Shown: positions 29,125 to 53,339 of the stretch, piece by piece
How the letters are laid out: every line of letters starts with the position of its first letter
Position numbering within the stretch: position 1 is the stretch's first letter
Virus record (IMG/VR): IMGVR_UViG_3300043313_001220
Coordinates: 1-64,000 of that record
Length of the DNA stretch: 64,000 bases
Origin: a virus
Strand: one strand, 5' to 3'
Program-made: the position numbers and the translations under genes
The notes under the pieces: generated by a model
The model's database searches: none
Told to the model about the DNA's origin: nothing
Seen by the model: only the letters and a program-made list of their open reading frames with translations

Positions 29125-29735
29125 CAGGCCACCCACCGCAGATCGGTCGGCCACTGGACCGACGAGCGGTTCAGCCACGCCAACGCCTGCTTGTCGGGCA
29201 CCCGCCGCTGGCCGGTGAGCAGGTCCAATCCCATGGCCGCCAGCACGATGGCGTCGGATTCATCATCGTTGACCTTGCCATATTCGGGCCACAGCTCGGC
29301 AACCGCCGCCATGACCCGCGCCTTCTTCTTGTCGATCCCGCCGTTTCCCGTCGCATACCCCTTGAGGACGGGCGAGGGGACGATCGCGAACGGTATGCGC
29401 ACCTGTGCCAGACGGCTGACCACGTCGTGGTACAGCTGAATGCGTTCGACCAGGCCGCCGTAGCCACGGCTGACGTCGGGCGCTTCGATCACCACCAGAT
29501 CGGGCCGACGATATGGGGCACCCGTGGCGCGCATCTCATCCGTGGTCAGCAGCGACGTCTCGGCGATCTGGTGGCCGAGCCACATGATCTCGTCGACCCG
29601 ATCGGCCAACGGCAGCTTGGTGATGCCAGGTTTGCCGATCTTCGCAGTGCGCTTGACGAGCCCTGCGGTTGCGATGCCGGCACAGGTCAGACCGAGGTCT
29701 TCACCGACGATGTGGGGTTGTCGCTCAAGGTGCAT
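29124..29735 (-). CDS. RuvC-like Holliday junction resolvase
   Basis: IVGEDLGLT, VVIEAP, PVLKGYATGNG and DDESDA. Confidence 0.85.
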   Translation of the reverse strand: MHLERQPHIVGEDLGLTCAGIATAGLVKRTAKIGKPGITKLPLADRVDEIMWLGHQIAETSLLTTDEMRATGAPYRRPDLVVIEAPDVSRGYGGLVERIQLYHDVVSRLAQVRIPFAIVPSPVLKGYATGNGGIDKKKARVMAAVAELWPEYGKVNDDESDAIVLAAMGLDLLTGQRRVPDKQALAWLNRSSVQWPTDLRWVA

Positions 29736-29754
29736 CGCGTGGGTGTCTCCTGCC

Positions 29755-30133
29755 GGATCGGGGTGGGGTGGGTAGGCATGTCGTGTGGAGTCGACGAGGA
29801 CTTGGGTAGGGGTGGGCGGCGCTGTCGTGGGTTTAGGCTCGGGGCTGCTTGGCTTGTCGCCATGTGGGTGGGCCTGGGTTGTCGGGGAATGGGCACGGGT
29901 AGGGAAGGCTTGGCATGTCGAGCCGGATGGAGGGGTCAGGACCGGAAAGTCGTTGAGTGGGGCAGGCATGGGCTGACCTGGCTTGGCAAGTCGGACGGTT
30001 GGGGATCGGATTGTCGCAGGGGGGGGAAGGGACGTGGACTGTCGTCGGGTCAGGCCCGGTCGGTGCGGGGTCGGTGTGTCGTACGGGGGGCAGGTCAGAA
30101 CTGTCGCGCGATGTGGCCGGGATTGGTTTGTCA
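29755..30133 (-). repeat. pentamer-periodic array 1, 12 units (C/T)GAC-(NNNNC)n
   Basis: Anchors 23-44 nt apart; 54 of 61 in-register pentamers end in C (hand count); directly downstream of the RAMP gene. Confidence 0.9.
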
Positions 30134-30135
30134 GA

Positions 30136-30166
30136 CGGGGGCGGGTCGCCGCAGCGCCCGCCCCCG
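30136..30166 (-). other. 10-bp GC hairpin between the RAMP stop codon and array 1
   Basis: CGGGGGCGGG-N11-CCCGCCCCCG. Confidence 0.75.
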
Positions 30167-30175
30167 GTTGGTCGA

Positions 30176-30922
30176 TCAGGCCGCCGCGACAGCCTTCTCC
30201 TTCTTACCCTCGCCGATCTGGTCCCACTGGGTGACGGTATACCGCCCGTAGCCCTGGCTGCGGCTGGCACCGATCCCCTGCTGGCCGCCGGTCACCCAAA
30301 TGGTCGCCCATTCTTTCTGGGTGAAGTCGTAATCGCTGATCACCGTGAACCCGACGACAGCGTCATCGACATACTCGGTGTACTGGATGCCGGTCTGGCG
30401 GGTGATCGGGTTGCGCGGGAACGACTGGAGGATGCCGGACGGCTCCAGGACCGCCTCGATCTTCTTCGTGTCCGCGCTGCGCTGGCCGACAAACAGCTTG
30501 TCCTCCAGCACGACGATGTGCTCGGCGATGAACGACAGCGTCCCCTTCTTGGTCGCGCCGTAACGCGCCGGGAGGTTGTCGACGGCGCGGGCGACCGACG
30601 CGGCCTCCTTCAGAGCGGCCTTCAGATGACGGCCTTCGATGTACAGGCCGTCCTGCGGGTCGCGCTTGAAGCCGTTCAGGTGGCGACGCTTGTCGACCTC
30701 CTTCAGCGCCTCATCCTCAGTGACACCGCGGGCGGCCATGACCTCGGCGACCGCCTGGGCGATGATGTCCTCCTTGTCGAGGCCCATCTTGCTCTTCAGC
30801 CAGCCCTCGGCGACCTTCGGGTCGGACGGGGTGCCGCCCATCAGTCGCTCGATCTGGATCTCTCCGGCGAACCGGAACGGGTAGACCCGGTTGATGTCAG
30901 CGGCGAACACATTCTTGGCCAT
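30176..30922 (-). CDS. solitary RAMP-superfamily (Cas7/Csm3-like) protein, 248 aa
   Basis: beta1+Gly IERLMGG; LYIEGRHLKAALKEA (cf. IPGSSLKGxLR); TEYVD..FTV; C-terminal G-rich loop GIGASRSQGYGRY; RBS AGAGAGGG. Confidence 0.8.
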   Translation of the reverse strand: MAKNVFAADINRVYPFRFAGEIQIERLMGGTPSDPKVAEGWLKSKMGLDKEDIIAQAVAEVMAARGVTEDEALKEVDKRRHLNGFKRDPQDGLYIEGRHLKAALKEAASVARAVDNLPARYGATKKGTLSFIAEHIVVLEDKLFVGQRSADTKKIEAVLEPSGILQSFPRNPITRQTGIQYTEYVDDAVVGFTVISDYDFTQKEWATIWVTGGQQGIGASRSQGYGRYTVTQWDQIGEGKKEKAVAAA

Positions 30923-30965: not shown

Positions 30966-30994
30966 AGCATATCCCGTGGCACATGGGGTGTCAA
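30966..30994 (-). promoter_or_regulatory. near-consensus promoter TTGACA-N17-TATGCT driving RAMP plus array 1
   Basis: Read directly from the sequence. Confidence 0.8.
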
Positions 30995-35219: not shown

Positions 35220-35757
35220 CCCATTGCTCCTTCTTCTCGGTGTAGTCAATGAAGCGCTCCCGGTGGCGCTCAAAGCGCCCCAGGAGCCGATTGCAAGGTG
35301 TGCACAGGACGCCCCTGACGCACTTACCGCACGTGCGCTTACCCGGACAGCAGCTGTGATCGTGGTCGACCGGGAATCGCGGGGCCCCGGGTTCCCCGCT
35401 CGACATCTCGCCACAGATCGCACAGCCGCCACCCTGCGCGGCCAGCAACGCATCGTAGTCCTCGGGGGTCAGGCCATATCGCCTCAGTGTGATCCGCCGG
35501 CTGAGGGCCACCCGACGCTCTTGGTTCGTAATAGCCCACGCGCGCTGAGTGGCCGCCCTGCGCTCCGGGTTCGCGGCCCTCCATGCGCGGTTGGTGGCCG
35601 CTACGCGCTCCAGATTTGCGGTTGCCCATGCGCGGTGGGTGGCTGCGCGACATGCCCTACATTGGGACTCCAGCCCGTCCCGACCGGTCTTGCGCTTGGA
35701 AAACCCCCCGAGCCCCTTCGTCTCCCCGCACTTGCTACAGCGTTTCGTCTCTTCCAT
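34954..35757 (-). CDS. endonuclease VII-family protein
   Basis: CSKCGE, RYGLT..Y..L...QGG.CAIC, VDHDH and VRGVLC..CN. Confidence 0.85.
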   Translation of the reverse strand: MEETKRCSKCGETKGLGGFSKRKTGRDGLESQCRACRAATHRAWATANLERVAATNRAWRAANPERRAATQRAWAITNQERRVALSRRITLRRYGLTPEDYDALLAAQGGGCAICGEMSSGEPGAPRFPVDHDHSCCPGKRTCGKCVRGVLCTPCNRLLGRFERHRERFIDYTEKKEQWDGHSRPPDPLSTGGPHPAGPQGQDQLGQGTAQPVGYSALYKCGPAPRGRGGSALRWRDGGMGGRPPGQAVAGGDRCGADSSLHPSPDC

Positions 35758-35772
35758 CTTTCACCTCCTGGG

Positions 35773-36131
35773 GGGTCGTCGTGTGGAACGGGCCGGTTAG
35801 TCGTGTGGTCTGGGCCGGTGTCTGACGGCCTCGGAATGTCGGCGGGATTGGACGGTACTGGGTGGGCAAGTCGGGCGGCGTACGGGTTGGCAAGTCGATA
35901 AGAACGGATTCGCAGGGTCGTGCGGGCTGGGCGGACTTGTCCGGGGCTGGCATGTCGGCGCGGGAGGGGGGAGGGGGGGAATGTCGGGCTGTGCGGGTTC
36001 GCGGGCGGATGGCCGGGAATGTCGTACGGGCGGGCTGGGATTGCGACGGAGGGGCAAGTCGGTGCGGCGGGGTGTGGATGGGGAAGTCGGGTTGGGACGC
36101 ACCGGTGGGGTTCGGGTTGTCGGGTTGGTCA
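35773..36131 (-). repeat. pentamer-periodic array 2, about 13 units
   Basis: Same grammar; the first anchor is the TGA stop of the upstream gene; ends at the RBS of the endoVII gene. Confidence 0.9.
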
Positions 36132-49061: not shown

Positions 49062-49289
49062 GTGACGACACCGAGCAAGACCACATGGGACACCGTCGAG
49101 TTCCGTCTGAACAGAGCCGCCAAGCTGATGTCCGAAGTGGACAGCCTGTTCCAACTCGGATTCGACACCACCGAGGAGGATGCCGCCAACCAGATTGCCC
49201 TTACCCAGCTGCTGGTCGCGGCGGCTAACGCCCACCTCCGGATCGCCGAGATGGAGATGACCGGCCACGCCTTCCGCCGCCACCAATGA
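49062..49289 (+). CDS. hypothetical protein
   Basis: Leaderless GTG; ATGA overlap. Confidence 0.55.
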   Translation: MTTPSKTTWDTVEFRLNRAAKLMSEVDSLFQLGFDTTEEDAANQIALTQLLVAAANAHLRIAEMEMTGHAFRRHQ

Positions 49290-50569
49290 CCACCACCATC
49301 CCCCGGGTCAAGCTCGCCCGGACCTACGCCGAGCTGCCGGCCTACCAGCCCGGTCACTGGCTCGTGGCCGGGACTCCCGGATGGCTGCCGTACCCCTGCA
49401 CCTGCTGGTACGACAATTGCAGCTACCCGAAGTGCCCGGACCGGGGGCGGCCGGAGGGAGACGCCCTGCCACCGGGATGCTGCGGGAGACGCCCTGTCGT
49501 GGCCGGGGAGCGCGCAGAAGCCCCCGCCCGGGGTTCGAATACCCGCAAGGGCCGTTCGTCAACGTGGAAGGCCACGGAGAGCCCCAGGCGCAGCACCCGC
49601 CCGGCGGATCTGCCACAGCGAGCGGTGGGTGGTTCGTCCTCGGTGGCCGGGGATCTGTGGGCGGCCCCGTGGGATGCCGAGCCCGCCCCGTGGGATCTGG
49701 ACGAGCCGGATCCCGGCCTGGGTGGCCCCGACGACCGGTCTCCCGTGGCCACGGAGACACCGAAGCCGGCTCCCGGGCATTCGAATGGGGATGCGGCCTC
49801 TCGTCAACATTCCGAGCCAAGCGACGGACTTTACCCGCACGGCGAACGTCAACGATCGCAGGTCGAACACTGTGCCTGTGTCACACCCTGGGACCCGCCG
49901 CCGCCGGTCCTCTTGGTGGCCGACGCCAAGACGGGTCCGGTCCGGGCCGCGATCGCCCTCGACCTGCGCGGCCCGGCCGGTGACCAGCCACGGCAGGACC
50001 CCCGCGACCTCGCCGAGAAGCTCCTGGCGGAGCGCGGCTACGGCCTGAAAGGCGGCTGGAAGGACGGGCGGCACACGCTGCTGCTGCCGGAGGGCAAGCT
50101 CAAGACCCGTCCTGGTTTCCTGGCCGAAGCATTCAACACCGCCTCCGGCCTGCGAGAGAGCGCTCTCGCGGTGATCGACACACCGCCGGAGCAGGCCGGG
50201 GGGGTTCATTGTCCGGACTGCCACAAGGACTGGCAGAGCGCGGGTGCCTACGGGATGCACCGCAGGAAGGGCAACGGGATTGATTGGCCTCGATGGGCCG
50301 AGCGCTGTGTGGACCCCGCGACGATCCGGGTCGTCCCCCGAAGTGCTGGCGCTAGCGCCAGCATATCACGCCGATCAAGCCCCGGGCAATATGATGGAGC
50401 ACCACTGTTGAAGCGCGGACCGAACGGCGTCTGGCATCTGGACCCGCTCGCCCCGTGGGGTCCCGGAGGCCCGCCGTTCAGCCCCGGGAAGGCGATGGAG
50501 ATCTATGAACGGGGGCGGCGGGAGCTGAAACGTTGGCATTTCGGGAAGGGCCACAACCGCGAGCGCTGA
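49286..50569 (+). CDS. hypothetical protein with Cys/His zinc-finger-like motifs
   Basis: CTC..C...C and HCPDC..H motifs. Confidence 0.6.
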   Translation: MTTTIPRVKLARTYAELPAYQPGHWLVAGTPGWLPYPCTCWYDNCSYPKCPDRGRPEGDALPPGCCGRRPVVAGERAEAPARGSNTRKGRSSTWKATESPRRSTRPADLPQRAVGGSSSVAGDLWAAPWDAEPAPWDLDEPDPGLGGPDDRSPVATETPKPAPGHSNGDAASRQHSEPSDGLYPHGERQRSQVEHCACVTPWDPPPPVLLVADAKTGPVRAAIALDLRGPAGDQPRQDPRDLAEKLLAERGYGLKGGWKDGRHTLLLPEGKLKTRPGFLAEAFNTASGLRESALAVIDTPPEQAGGVHCPDCHKDWQSAGAYGMHRRKGNGIDWPRWAERCVDPATIRVVPRSAGASASISRRSSPGQYDGAPLLKRGPNGVWHLDPLAPWGPGGPPFSPGKAMEIYERGRRELKRWHFGKGHNRER

Positions 50570-50606
50570 CACGCCGCTTGCCACGCCCGGTGGCGTGTGG
50601 CAGGAT
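50567..50606 (+). promoter_or_regulatory. promoter TTGCCA-N17-CAGGAT with TGACAC box, directly upstream of array 3
   Basis: TGACACGCCGC-TTGCCA; first GAC unit starts 5-6 nt after the -10. Confidence 0.7.
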
Positions 50607-50610
50607 AGGG

Positions 50611-51858
50611 GGACAAACCAGGCCAGTGCGCCTCCCGACTAGCCAGTTCGTACCACACGACAAGCCTGCCCCCCTCGCATCCGCTGCACACCGACAAGTC
50701 GTGCCGCCGCAAGCCCAGCCCACCCCCCGCTCGCCGACACATCTAGCCGTACCACACGACAAGCCTGCCCAGTGCAATGCCGCCCAGCCTTGACGACACC
50801 CCAGACCGACATATGCCCGACTGTTCACATCCACCCTACCGCCGTCCGACACCGCACGCCACACCCTCGCGCTCCGTACGACCAACCTCTCCGAATCTTG
50901 CCGACGCGCACGACATGCCGCTCTCGACACCGCCCGACCCGCACCGACACAGCACGCCGGTCCGACCCAACCGACACGCCCGGCCACCGCAGGACTCACG
51001 ACAGATCTGCCCAGCGCTCACCCATGCGACTACCCGTCCCACAGCTGGTCGGCCCCTACCCCGACACCCGACATGGCCCATCTGTCCCAGCCGCCCGACA
51101 TGCCATCCCAGCCGAGTCCTCCCCGACACTCCACCCTCAGCCGCAACGCCCCGAGACGACAGATCTGTTCCGCCCACCCCATGTGACTACCCTGCCCGGC
51201 CCTGCTCCAATATCGACTACCCGACGCAACCCCAGAGCCCCCGCTGACATATCCAGCCCGCCCGCCCCAGGCGACCAGCCACCCCAGCTCCTGTGTCGAC
51301 AACCCGATCGGCGTCACGCCAGACCCAACCCGACGACAGCCCAGACCCGCACTGTCTTACCCCGTGCTCGGACCGCCCATCCCACCCGACAAGCCCACCC
51401 GGGCCGGTACAACCCCAGCCGTGCCCCACCCCCCGACTACCCTACACACCCCAGTGCGGATCCGACACGCCATCTCATCGCACCGCCGCCGACTACCCCG
51501 GCCCTTCGTGCCCTGTCTCCGACGACCCGTGCCATCCGACAAGCCCAGCCGCGCCGATGCAACCCCACTGCGACCATCCATCCCGCGTCATTGCGGGCCC
51601 GACACGCCATCCCTGGCATCCCCGACCCGGTACCGACAAGCCCAGCCGCCGCGCTTCATATCGACAAGCCGACCCACGCCACCCCGTGTCCTCTCCCGGC
51701 CCGTCCGACAGTGCGTCCCCACGCCGCCCAGTGGCTTCCCCACCCATCCCCCATGGCACGCCCGATCAAAGCGGCGTACTGACGAGCCCGTCCCCACCCG
51801 GCCCCCCGACAAGCCGAGCGAACTCCAACCCAGCCCCTACGACAACCCGCTGGACCGA
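50611..51858 (+). repeat. pentamer-periodic array 3, about 39 units (putative ncRNA array)
   Basis: Same grammar throughout; internal 23-bp duplication at 50649-50671 and 50748-50770. Confidence 0.92.
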
Positions 51859-51872
51859 TAGGGAAGAGAGAT

Positions 51873-53339
51873 ATGGACAGGCGATACGAGAGTGCCGATG
51901 TCACAGCGATCTGGAGCGACCAGGGCCGCAACCTGGTCGAACGCAGCATCTGGGTCGAGGTGATGCGAGCCCAGCGCGAAGCCGGAATCGACATCCCGGA
52001 AGACCAGATCGACGCGTACGCCGACCTGGCAGCCAGCCAGGCACTGCTGGACCCGGACCACGAGGAAGCCCTGCTCGAAACGCAGGACATCGCCGAGCTG
52101 GAGAGAGAGACCAAACATGACCTGTACGCCCGACTGCGGTGGTTCAACGAGAGTGTCGGAGGCGACCACGCCCACCGCGGGTTGACCTCGGCCGACATCA
52201 CCGAGAACACCCAGCAGATCCAGATCGTCGCCTCCGCCGAACTGCTGCTAGAACACGCTGAGCAGGTCCTGCGCCGGATGTACGAGCGTGCCGGGGTGTT
52301 CGCCACGGTGCCGATCGTCGCCCGCACCCATGGCCGACCCGCGCAGCTGACCACCATTGGCAAGCGGATCACCGACTGGATGCAGGAGCTGATGGGGGCG
52401 ATGGTCACTCTCCAGGGGGCCATCGAAGGTTACGTGCCGCGGGGGATCAAAGGCGCGGTCGGCACCAGTGCCGACATGGCGCGGACGTTGCTGTCCGGCC
52501 TGCCGGAGGGCAGCCCCGCCAGCAGGTGGGTGGCCGCCCGCCTGGCCGCCGGCACGCTGGACGACCGGGTGTCGTCCAAGCTGGCAGGCGAGACCACATC
52601 GATGCTGTCGACCGGGCAGTGTTACCCACGCTCGGCCGACCTGCCGATCATCTCCGCGACGTTGCAGCTCGCCGCCGCGTGCGGCACGGTCGCCACTGCC
52701 GTGCGGCTGATGTCCGCGCTCGGCCTGGCGGTCGAGAACCCCGACGCGCATGTCGGGTCGTCGGCCATGCCCCACAAGAGCAACCCGCGCTACAGCGAGC
52801 GGGTCTGCAGCCTCCAGGTGGTCGCACGCGGGTATGCGGGAATGTTGCAGGAGACCGCCGGCACGCAGTGGCTGGAAGGTGACGTGTCGACCTCTGCGGC
52901 CCGCCGGATCGCCCTGCCGGGGCTATTCCACACGGTGGATTCGATGCTGGCCAACACCGCCTGGGTGTTGGACCATCTGGTGTTCGACCTGGAGGCGATC
53001 AAGGACGAGCGCGACCTGTGGATGCCGGAGATGGCATCCGGCGCGCTGTTGGCCGCACTGGTCGAGAACGGGGTGCCACGTCAGAAGGCACACGAGGTAC
53101 TGCGGCACCATTATCGGCAGATCGGCGGCCCGGACTGCGAGAGCGACCGATCGGGGACGCTGATCTACCACCTGACCAGTGAAGACGCAGAGTTCCGGCT
53201 GACTGCGGAGCAGACCCAGGCCGCGTTCGACCCGGAGATGTTGGTTGGTTCTGCGGTGGCGATCGTGGAGGCTGTGGTCGGTGCGGAGCTCGGCGAGCTG
53301 CTGGATGCCGACCCGGAATGGCCTGGCGACCTGGTGTGA
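51873..53339 (+). CDS. purB: adenylosuccinate lyase
   Basis: TKHD, H.GLTS.D, ARTHGRPAQ.TT.GKR, GAVGT and the signature GSSAMPHKSNP..SE. Confidence 0.92.
   Translation: MDRRYESADVTAIWSDQGRNLVERSIWVEVMRAQREAGIDIPEDQIDAYADLAASQALLDPDHEEALLETQDIAELERETKHDLYARLRWFNESVGGDHAHRGLTSADITENTQQIQIVASAELLLEHAEQVLRRMYERAGVFATVPIVARTHGRPAQLTTIGKRITDWMQELMGAMVTLQGAIEGYVPRGIKGAVGTSADMARTLLSGLPEGSPASRWVAARLAAGTLDDRVSSKLAGETTSMLSTGQCYPRSADLPIISATLQLAAACGTVATAVRLMSALGLAVENPDAHVGSSAMPHKSNPRYSERVCSLQVVARGYAGMLQETAGTQWLEGDVSTSAARRIALPGLFHTVDSMLANTAWVLDHLVFDLEAIKDERDLWMPEMASGALLAALVENGVPRQKAHEVLRHHYRQIGGPDCESDRSGTLIYHLTSEDAEFRLTAEQTQAAFDPEMLVGSAVAIVEAVVGAELGELLDADPEWPGDLV

What the first reader, a model, noticed from the sequence alone, without database searches (positions are those of the whole stretch)
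50567..51858. 1.25-kb promoter-driven array of about 39 CGAC-(NNNNC)n units, 20 kb from the RAMP gene
Seen: the largest non-coding region in the window parses end to end in the same grammar, e.g. CGAC aagtC gtgcC gccgC aagcC cagcC caccC cccgC and CGAC aagcC caccC gggcC ggtaC aaccC cagcC gtgcC ccacC. A promoter (TTGCCA-N17-CAGGAT) places the expected start site at the first GAC (GGAC aaacC aggcC agtgC gcctC). Inference: the primary transcript 5' end matches the unit boundary, so the C-rich strand is the RNA and mature units begin at GAC. This would be the main guide library, acting in trans.
Basis: partly seen in the sequence, partly recalled or inferred. Interest (0 to 1): 0.9.

Follow-up and report, generated by a model that had tools for sequence, protein, structure and literature searches.

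The report
Large phage VIPR guide-RNA array
The 1.3-kb cytosine-rich tract is a real, strictly phased array of five-base repeats that belongs to a VIPR system, a phage-borne relative of CRISPR first described in 2026. It is a large member of a clade that writes the five-base code differently from the studied examples.

Summary
Window 50570-51872 is non-coding, C 48% and G 21%, and is cut by 46 CGAC (50 YGAC) marks. Counted from each mark, every fifth base is C in 78% of cases, against 48% in shuffles (z 9.2).

Smaller arrays with the same grammar lie on the minus strand at 29735-30176, 35757-36129 and 40167-40263.

The 248-aa gene at 30176-30922(-) folds as a Cas7/Csm3-type RAMP. In 38 of 42 loci that encode a homologue, an array of the same kind lies on the same strand, usually running up to its ribosome-binding site.

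This matches VIPR systems (bioRxiv 10.64898/2026.04.26.720920): Vipr protein plus pentamer-repeat guide RNAs whose two variable bases read DNA while skipping every third base. I tested that rule in this clade and it holds. One relative's guide matches this phage's terminase Walker A motif 18/18, and another matches its vipr gene.

A close relative (flanks 87-92% identical) has an array at the same site with unrelated content.

Not shown:
- which strand is the RNA;
- any promoter at array A;
- any target of this array's own guides.

The kind is known, and earlier notes of this scan filed sister actinophage loci as VIPR. This clade's motif (NN-C-Y-C on the vipr strand), its GAC punctuation and its short units differ from the studied systems.

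The parts
50570..51872 (+). Array A: 46 CGAC (50 YGAC) marks followed by phased pentamers. It runs from the stop codon of the upstream gene to the ribosome-binding site of purB.
30176..30922 (-). vipr-like gene: a 248-aa single-RRM RAMP with G-loop GIGASRSQGYG.
   Evidence: AlphaFold pLDDT 78, pTM 0.70. Foldseek top hits are type VII Cas7 and Csm3, E 5e-7. VIA-align gives Csm3 Z 9.5. 1111 homologues, none with a Pfam or PHROG family.
29736..30175 (-). Array B: 17 CGAC units between vipr and the ruvC-like gene.
   Evidence: in-phase C 85%, z 6.7
35757..36128 (-). Array C: 13 CGAC units between a 217-aa gene and an endonuclease VII gene.
   Evidence: in-phase C 91%, z 6.9
40167..40263 (-). Array D: a short tract of the same grammar in the leader of the leftward operon.
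30966..30994 (-). Sigma-70-like promoter (TTGACA-17-TATGCT, 10 of 12) reading into vipr and array B.
40713..40742 (-). Sigma-70-like promoter (TTGACA-18-TATCGT, 10 of 12) upstream of array D.
50588..50616 (+). It is conserved in the relative L073 but fails the consensus scan.
49286..50569 (+). Upstream flanking gene, 427 aa, with a weak match to a phage zinc-binding domain.
51873..53339 (+). Downstream flanking gene: purB-like adenylosuccinate lyase.

Best explanation
Array A is a VIPR-type guide-RNA (vrRNA) array. It is the largest of four in this phage, and it serves the Vipr protein encoded at 30176-30922(-).

Proposed mechanism:
- The array is transcribed. Most likely the C-rich strand is the RNA, running in the same direction as the flanking genes.
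- Vipr protomers assemble along the RNA, one per pentamer.
- Each protomer holds the three constrained bases (C-Y-C, the last C near-invariant) and leaves the two free bases exposed.
- The exposed dinucleotides pair with double-stranded DNA while every third target base is skipped. A unit of n pentamers therefore reads n codons at their first two positions.
- A 3-nt GAC mark breaks the lattice between units. This explains the 5n+3 spacing and probably sets the unit ends.
- Binding would silence genes of rival phages or prophages.

Shown here:
- the grammar;
- the RAMP fold;
- the gene-array linkage across the clade;
- the skip rule in the clade;
- the hypervariability of the array.

Inferred from the published type II systems: filament assembly, DNA silencing, the RNA strand and unit processing.
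For: - Phase-locked period 5 in all three large arrays: 78%, 85% and 91% in-phase C, z 6.7-9.2.
- Across 206 non-redundant units from 40 loci the pentamer is N N C(.60) Y(C .64, T .19) C(.95). Positions 1 and 2 have uniform composition.
- CGAC-to-CGAC spacing is quantised as 5n+3 in 353 of 709 units, with peaks at 33, 38, 43, 48 and 53 nt.
- The 248-aa protein is a Cas7/Csm3-like RAMP by two independent aligners.
- Arrays lie on the vipr strand in 38 of 42 loci and never on the other strand.
- In relatives the array runs up to the vipr ribosome-binding site, so vipr mRNA must include it.
- The published VIPR description matches: a small RAMP, pentamer repeats with 3 fixed and 2 variable bases, the 1-nt skip rule, and phage carriage.
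- Skip-rule test in this clade: perfect hits for skip 0/1/2/3 are 1/18/6/2.
- A 9-pentamer guide of L043 matches this phage at 70991-71016, 18 of 18, on the Walker A codons VRGPHGLGK with the skip at the wobble base.
- An L019 guide matches the VAEGWLK codons of vipr in 12 loci, including this phage.
- In relative L073 the flanks are 92% and 87% identical. The arrays are 65% identical against 62% for shuffled sequence.
- The C-rich RNA is no more structured than shuffles (z +1.48). No Rfam family matches it.

For the C-rich strand being the RNA:
- In SUSP1 the vrRNAs lie on the vipr strand.
- Promoter-like sites near arrays B, C and D are all on the sense strand.
- The SUSP1 residues that read the two guanines, D177 and W178, align with Ala and Ser here.
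Against:
- No promoter-like site on either strand at array A.
- No target was found for array A's own guides. Local searches were at shuffle level. Two 16-nt guides gave chance-level hits in IMG/VR, 12 and 14, mostly in low-GC contigs. They were also at chance level in 401 actinobacterial genomes, 1 hit against 1 control and 0 hits.
- Units here are short: 21 of 50 have 5 or more pentamers and the longest clean run is 8. Studied vrRNAs have 9-16 repeats. Lattice fidelity is 78%, against 95% in relatives.
- There is no structured 3' tail and no vap gene of the kind seen in relatives.
- Sequence similarity to SUSP1 Vipr is marginal: E 0.008, 52 columns.
- Read on the other strand, the motif (G-R-G/NN) is closer to the canonical GGY/NN.
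Confidence: 0.78

Rival explanations
1. It is the same VIPR system, but the working guide is the G-rich antisense RNA. That RNA reads (G-R-G/S-N-N)n followed by GTC and is transcribed against the flanking genes.
For: - On the complement the near-invariant base is G and the next is mostly G, close to the canonical GGY/NN.
- The discovery preprint lists variant repeats NNNGG and NNNNG.
- In this phage the third position is almost free, so the complement reads GGNNN.
- A long untranslated C-rich sense RNA would be a good Rho substrate (my own knowledge, not tested).
Against: - Arrays are co-oriented with vipr in all 38 loci, as in SUSP1, where the vrRNAs are sense.
- In relatives the arrays abut the vipr ribosome-binding site, which leaves no room for a divergent promoter.
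- No antisense promoter-like site was found.
- The guanine-reading residues of SUSP1 Vipr are not kept.
- The third position is mostly G in the clade, whereas SUSP1's pocket excludes purines.
Confidence: 0.2
2. Array A is not a working guide library. It is a Vipr-binding leader or sponge, or a decaying array. It might set Vipr availability or purB expression, or soak up rival Vipr proteins.
For: - Units are short and lattice fidelity is lower than in relatives.
- No targets were found.
- The array sits between two genes of an operon, 20 kb from vipr.
Against: - The array is kept at the same site and size in relative L073, with the grammar intact but the content replaced. That pattern suggests selection on the variable bases rather than decay.
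- Target searches were limited to exact matches of two guides and small local databases.
Confidence: 0.12
3. The tract is a C-rich untranslated leader that loads Rho or another host factor, unrelated to the RAMP gene.
For: C-rich, G-poor, unstructured RNA is what Rho-loading sites look like (my own knowledge).
Against: Composition alone does not explain a strict 5-nt phase, the 5n+3 spacing or the fixed linkage to a RAMP gene across 38 loci.
Confidence: 0.03
4. The tract is a replication origin or iteron field bound as double-stranded DNA. It lies beside the primase-polymerase gene.
For: It lies 1.8 kb downstream of the PrimPol/helicase gene and holds many short direct repeats.
Against: - Only one base in five is fixed, and on one strand only.
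- Four arrays are all co-oriented with transcription.
- In relatives the arrays travel with vipr, not with replication genes.
Confidence: 0.02
5. The tract encodes a proline-rich protein.
For: Long open frames exist, for example 50772-51782 at 336 aa.
Against: - There is no period-3 signal.
- The frames are open only because stop codons are rare in C-rich DNA.
- The sequence is not conserved in L073 while both flanks are.
Confidence: 0.01

Closest known systems
VIPR systems, best studied in type II of Escherichia phage SUSP1 and a Pseudomonas fulva prophage (bioRxiv 10.64898/2026.04.26.720920, 10.64898/2026.04.26.720927, 10.64898/2026.10.15.759431)
   Same: - A small stand-alone RAMP carried by a phage.
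- Guide tracts of 5-nt repeats with three constrained and two hypervariable bases.
- Arrays beside the gene and on its strand.
- Targets read by the xNN rule with the skip at the wobble base.
- Guides aimed at rival phages and at other vipr genes.
   Different: - The constrained triplet is C-Y-C on the vipr strand, not GGY.
- Units have 1-10 pentamers, not 9-16.
- There is no structured 3' tail. Units are separated by a 3-nt GAC mark, giving 5n+3 spacing.
- Four arrays with about 80 units are spread over 22 kb, one of them 20 kb from vipr.
- This phage has no vap gene of the kind found in relatives.
- Sequence similarity to SUSP1 Vipr is marginal.
Variant VIPR arrays noted in the preprints: NNNGG, YNNNG and NNNNG repeats, staggered arrays, and non-canonical triplets such as GAC/NN and CAC/NN (10.64898/2026.04.26.720920; 10.64898/2026.10.21.760802)
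   Same: - Period 5 with a relaxed or different fixed part.
- Contiguous units without long tails.
- (NNNNC)n is NNNNG on the other strand.
   Different: I could not see the figures that define these variants, so I cannot say whether this clade is among them. The text I read names no C-rich triplet and no actinobacterial clade.
CRISPR class 1 backbones (Csm3, Cmr4, Cas7, Csf2), including type IV-B complexes that assemble on non-CRISPR RNA
   Same: RAMP fold with a G-loop. The best structural matches are Z 8-9.5. The protein acts as a ruler along a guide RNA.
   Different: - Period 5, not 6.
- No identical repeats and no spacers.
- No other RAMP or Cas family matched among the neighbouring genes scanned.
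- Base-specific reading of the guide lattice.
Type III toxin-antitoxin repeat arrays (ToxI/ToxN)
   Same: A tandem RNA repeat array directly upstream of the protein that binds it, with units of similar length (my own knowledge).
   Different: ToxI repeats are near-identical and ToxN is not a RAMP. Here the units differ in sequence and share only the lattice.

Membership tests
VIPR system | Small single-RRM RAMP (Vipr) with a G-loop and a thumb | tested here: met
   pLDDT 78. Foldseek hits type VII Cas7 and Csm3 at E 5e-7. VIA-align gives Csm3 Z 9.5, and nearly all of the top 44 rows are CRISPR RAMPs. The motif GIGASRSQGYG fits GhGxxxxxGhG.
VIPR system | Sequence homology to an experimentally studied Vipr (SUSP1) | tested here: inconclusive
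   hhalign aligns only the last strand and the G-loop: 52 columns, 27% identity, E 0.008, probability 4.8%.
VIPR system | Tandem pentanucleotide repeats with three conserved and two hypervariable positions | tested here: met
   N N C(.60) Y C(.95), with uniform composition at positions 1-2. In-phase C is 78-91% in this phage.
VIPR system | Conserved triplet GGY on the vrRNA | tested here: not met
   On the vipr strand the triplet is C-Y-C. On the complement it is G-R-G/S. The preprints allow 'a related consensus'.
VIPR system | vrRNA of 9-16 repeats capped by a conserved structured 3' tail (type II) | tested here: not met
   Units have 1-10 pentamers, separated by GAC with no tail. No structure beyond shuffles. 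No Rfam hit. Other VIPR types have other layouts.
VIPR system | Arrays lie beside vipr | tested here: met
   38 of 42 loci with a homologue carry an array on its strand. In this phage array B abuts vipr, and array A is 20 kb away.
VIPR system | Accessory vap gene | tested here: inconclusive
   In 21 relatives a 170-215-aa gene with no known family lies just upstream of the array. No homologue is found in this phage.
VIPR system | Targets read by the NN bases with a 1-nt skip that falls on codon wobble positions | tested here: met
   Met for the clade: perfect hits are 1/18/6/2 for skip 0/1/2/3, and the L043 and L019 guides hit in frame. No target was found for array A's own guides.
VIPR system | vrRNAs are expressed and co-purify with Vipr | not testable with these tools
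CRISPR array | Near-identical direct repeats of 23-50 bp alternating with unique spacers, with cas genes nearby | tested here: not met
   No such repeat family was found. No other RAMP or Cas family matched among the neighbouring genes scanned.

The most novel reading that the evidence does not exclude
This actinophage clade uses a second, cytosine-reading version of the VIPR code: C-rich sense-strand guides, NN-CYC pentamers, GAC-punctuated short units. Its arrays are rewritten far faster than the surrounding genome by an unknown diversification or acquisition process. No acquisition process is described in the VIPR preprints read here.
Probability: 0.35. Interest if true: 0.75.

Novelty: new variant of a known kind. 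Interest (0 to 1): 0.55.

Why it matters
VIPR was described only in 2026, and its mechanism rests on two closely related Gram-negative systems. This phage offers about 80 natural units in four arrays. Its clade changes three things:
- the fixed triplet;
- probably the base that the protein reads;
- the way units are separated.

That makes it a natural test of how far the five-base code can vary.

The comparison with a close relative also matters. The flanks are 87-92% identical, while the array sits at the same place with the same grammar and essentially unrelated content. So these libraries turn over quickly, which bears on the open question of how VIPR guides are renewed without Cas1-like machinery.

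The phage is itself hit by relatives' guides at its terminase Walker A motif and at its vipr gene, which places it inside a network of mutual targeting. It also carries a PurZ-type module. If its DNA holds 2-aminoadenine, it would show whether base substitution affects RNA-guided silencing. That last point is speculation.

Tried and rejected
Searches that found nothing relevant:
- DNA similarity of the array to 50,697 phage records: no match.
- Rfam: only a tRNA elsewhere in the window.
- Tandem Repeats Finder: only two trivial 10-nt rows.
- Global Fourier power at period 5: none, because the phase resets at each anchor.

Other readings considered:
- Before I found the VIPR literature I weighed several alternatives. 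These were Rho loading sites, G-quadruplex or i-motif DNA, primase recognition sites (GTC on the complement), iterons, TRAP-like or potexvirus-like 5-nt protein footprints, and type III toxin-antitoxin arrays.
- None of them explains the phase, the 5n+3 spacing and the RAMP linkage together.

Targets of this phage's own guides:
- Local search of 0.7-1.1 Mb: no signal above NN-order shuffles.
- IMG/VR exact scans of two 16-nt guides: 12 and 14 hits, nearly all in low-GC contigs. The one high-GC hit (L050) lies in a tail-fibre-like gene with the skip at codon position 1.
- 401 actinobacterial genomes: 1 hit against 1 control hit, and 0 hits.

Accessory gene and promoters:
- Search for the relatives' accessory gene in this phage: none.
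- Clade-wide promoter scan to settle the strand: too few consensus sites to say anything.

Tools that did not run:
The full-length close relatives (contigs of P0002, P0006, P0017 and P0024) could therefore not be fetched.

Full report
**What is there**

The window is the first 64 kb of a complete 94,374-bp virus record with terminal repeats, about 67% G+C.

- Between the stop codon of a 427-aa gene (50569) and the start of a purB-like gene (51873) lie 1303 bases with no codon periodicity and no gene-like frame.
- The plus strand is 48% C and 21% G. It is the most skewed stretch of the genome.
- CGAC occurs 46 times. Its complement GTCG occurs 3 times.

**Is the five-base grammar real?**

Yes.

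- C autocorrelation peaks at lag 5 (z 6.2).
- A Fourier test over the whole tract sees nothing, because the phase restarts at every anchor.
- Counted from each CGAC, C fills every fifth position in 78% of cases. Shuffles within units give 48% (z 9.2). The signal survives removal of the first two pentamers (z 6.1).
- In the rest of the genome the same count shows only the codon period.

The same grammar occurs on the minus strand at three more sites. In every case the C-rich strand is the sense strand of the neighbouring genes:

- 29736-30175, with 85% in-phase C;
- 35757-36128, with 91% in-phase C;
- a short tract at 40167-40263.

**The partner gene**

The gene at 30176-30922(-) encodes 248 residues with no Pfam or PHROG family.

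- Its model (pLDDT 78) matches CRISPR backbone RAMPs by Foldseek: type VII Cas7 and Csm3, E 5e-7.
- An independent all-against-all aligner gives Csm3 Z 9.5. Nearly all of the top 44 rows are CRISPR RAMPs.
- It has 1111 homologues.

I fetched 42 loci that encode homologues from viral contigs and from actinobacterial genomes: Streptomyces, Nocardiopsis, Streptacidiphilus, Actinomadura, Streptosporangium and several MAGs.

- 38 of the 42 carry an array of the same grammar, always on the gene's strand.
- The array usually runs right up to the gene's ribosome-binding site.
- In 21 loci a conserved 170-215-aa gene of unknown family sits just upstream of the array. This phage has no homologue of it.

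**The grammar, refined on 206 non-redundant units**

- The pentamer is N N C(.60) Y(C .64, T .19) C(.95). The first two positions have uniform composition.
- Anchor-to-anchor spacing is 5n+3 in half of all units, with sharp peaks at 33, 38, 43, 48 and 53 nt.
- The simplest parse is a lattice of pentamers interrupted by a 3-nt GAC mark. The C before GAC closes the previous pentamer.

**What it is**

Earlier notes of this scan on other genomes pointed to VIPR systems. I read the papers myself.

- VIPR consists of a small phage-borne RAMP (Vipr), often an accessory gene (vap), and vrRNAs made of 5-nt repeats.
- In each repeat three bases (GGY) are held by the protein, one protomer per repeat. Two variable bases pair with DNA while every third target base is skipped.
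- The skipped base usually falls on the codon wobble position.
- Natural guides aim at rival phages, satellites and other VIPR loci.
- The preprints mention seven types, variant repeats (NNNGG, YNNNG, NNNNG; GAC/NN, CAC/NN) and staggered arrays without long tails.

**Testing the rule here**

I took guides of six or more pentamers from all loci and searched 0.75 Mb of local sequence with the arrays masked. Perfect hits numbered 1, 18, 6 and 2 for skips of 0, 1, 2 and 3 bases.

- A nine-pentamer guide from a Jatrophihabitantaceae MAG prophage (L043) matches this phage at 70991-71016, 18 of 18. The match lies on the codons for VRGPHGLGK, the Walker A motif of an intein-bearing terminase-like gene. 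Every skipped base is a wobble base.
- A guide of L019 matches the VAEGWLK codons of vipr in 12 loci, this phage included.

The published code therefore operates in this clade.

**Turnover**

A metagenome contig (L073) carries a purB that is 87% identical in DNA and an upstream flank that is 92% identical.

- Between them is an array of 58 units with the same grammar.
- The two arrays align at 65% identity, against 62% for shuffled sequence.
- Only 2 of 32 long units have a counterpart at 80% identity or more.

**Which strand is the RNA?**

This is not settled. I favour the C-rich sense strand, at about two to one.

For the sense strand:
- In SUSP1 the vrRNAs lie on the vipr strand.
- Here all arrays are co-oriented with vipr, and in relatives they form its leader.
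- The promoter-like sites near arrays B, C and D are all on the sense strand.
- The SUSP1 residues that read the two guanines align with Ala and Ser in this family.

Against the sense strand:
- The complement reads G-R-G/NN, which is nearer the canonical motif.
- Array A has no promoter-like site on either strand.
- No RNA data could be obtained.

**Limits**

- I found no target for array A's own guides.
- Its units are short and its lattice is looser than in relatives. A role as a sponge or leader, or partial decay, cannot be excluded.
- I could not view the preprint figures that define the array variants. This clade may already be typed there.

Noticed in passing
G000:C1:70733-73471 (outside the window; locus L145): A 912-aa terminase-like ORF with an intein-like insert after its Walker A motif. 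The Walker A codons are matched 18 of 18 by a VIPR guide of a prophage in a Jatrophihabitantaceae MAG (L043:5689).
   Followed up: partly
window 30795-30814: This phage's own vipr gene (VAEGWLK codons) is matched perfectly by a guide of another VIPR locus (L019:9933). The same guide hits the vipr genes of 11 other loci.
   Followed up: partly
window 42018-45925 and 51873-53339: An adenylosuccinate-synthetase-like gene (a PurZ candidate), a dUTPase fusion and a purB-like lyase together suggest a 2-aminoadenine (Z) genome. Array A sits inside this module.
   Followed up: partly
window 41177-41283: Rfam calls a tRNA of 107 nt (46 bits), but ARAGORN finds none. It may be a tRNA-like RNA with an insert.
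   Followed up: no
L003-L034, directly upstream of the arrays (e.g. L012:8733-9248): A conserved 170-215-aa gene is present in 21 loci. It has no Pfam family and no sequence match to a solved structure. It is the candidate accessory (vap) gene of this clade and is absent from this phage.
   Followed up: partly
L031:7604-9432 and L029:9172-12916: L031 has a 1.8-kb array of 83 units. L029 has three arrays, one upstream and two downstream of vipr. Large and multiple arrays are therefore not unique to this phage.
   Followed up: no
L018 and L025 (51-54% G+C relatives): Both encode a homologue, but my detector found no array of this grammar. Lower-GC members may write the code differently.
   Followed up: no
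PP395641.1:37719-38456 (Microcystis phage Mae-JY09): This is the only isolated phage in the collection with a tblastn match to this Vipr: 31% identity over 95% of the protein.
   Followed up: no
window 30140-30170 (minus strand): A G+C-rich hairpin lies between the vipr stop codon and array B. It may set the ratio of vipr mRNA to array RNA, as terminators do in other repeat-RNA systems.
   Followed up: no
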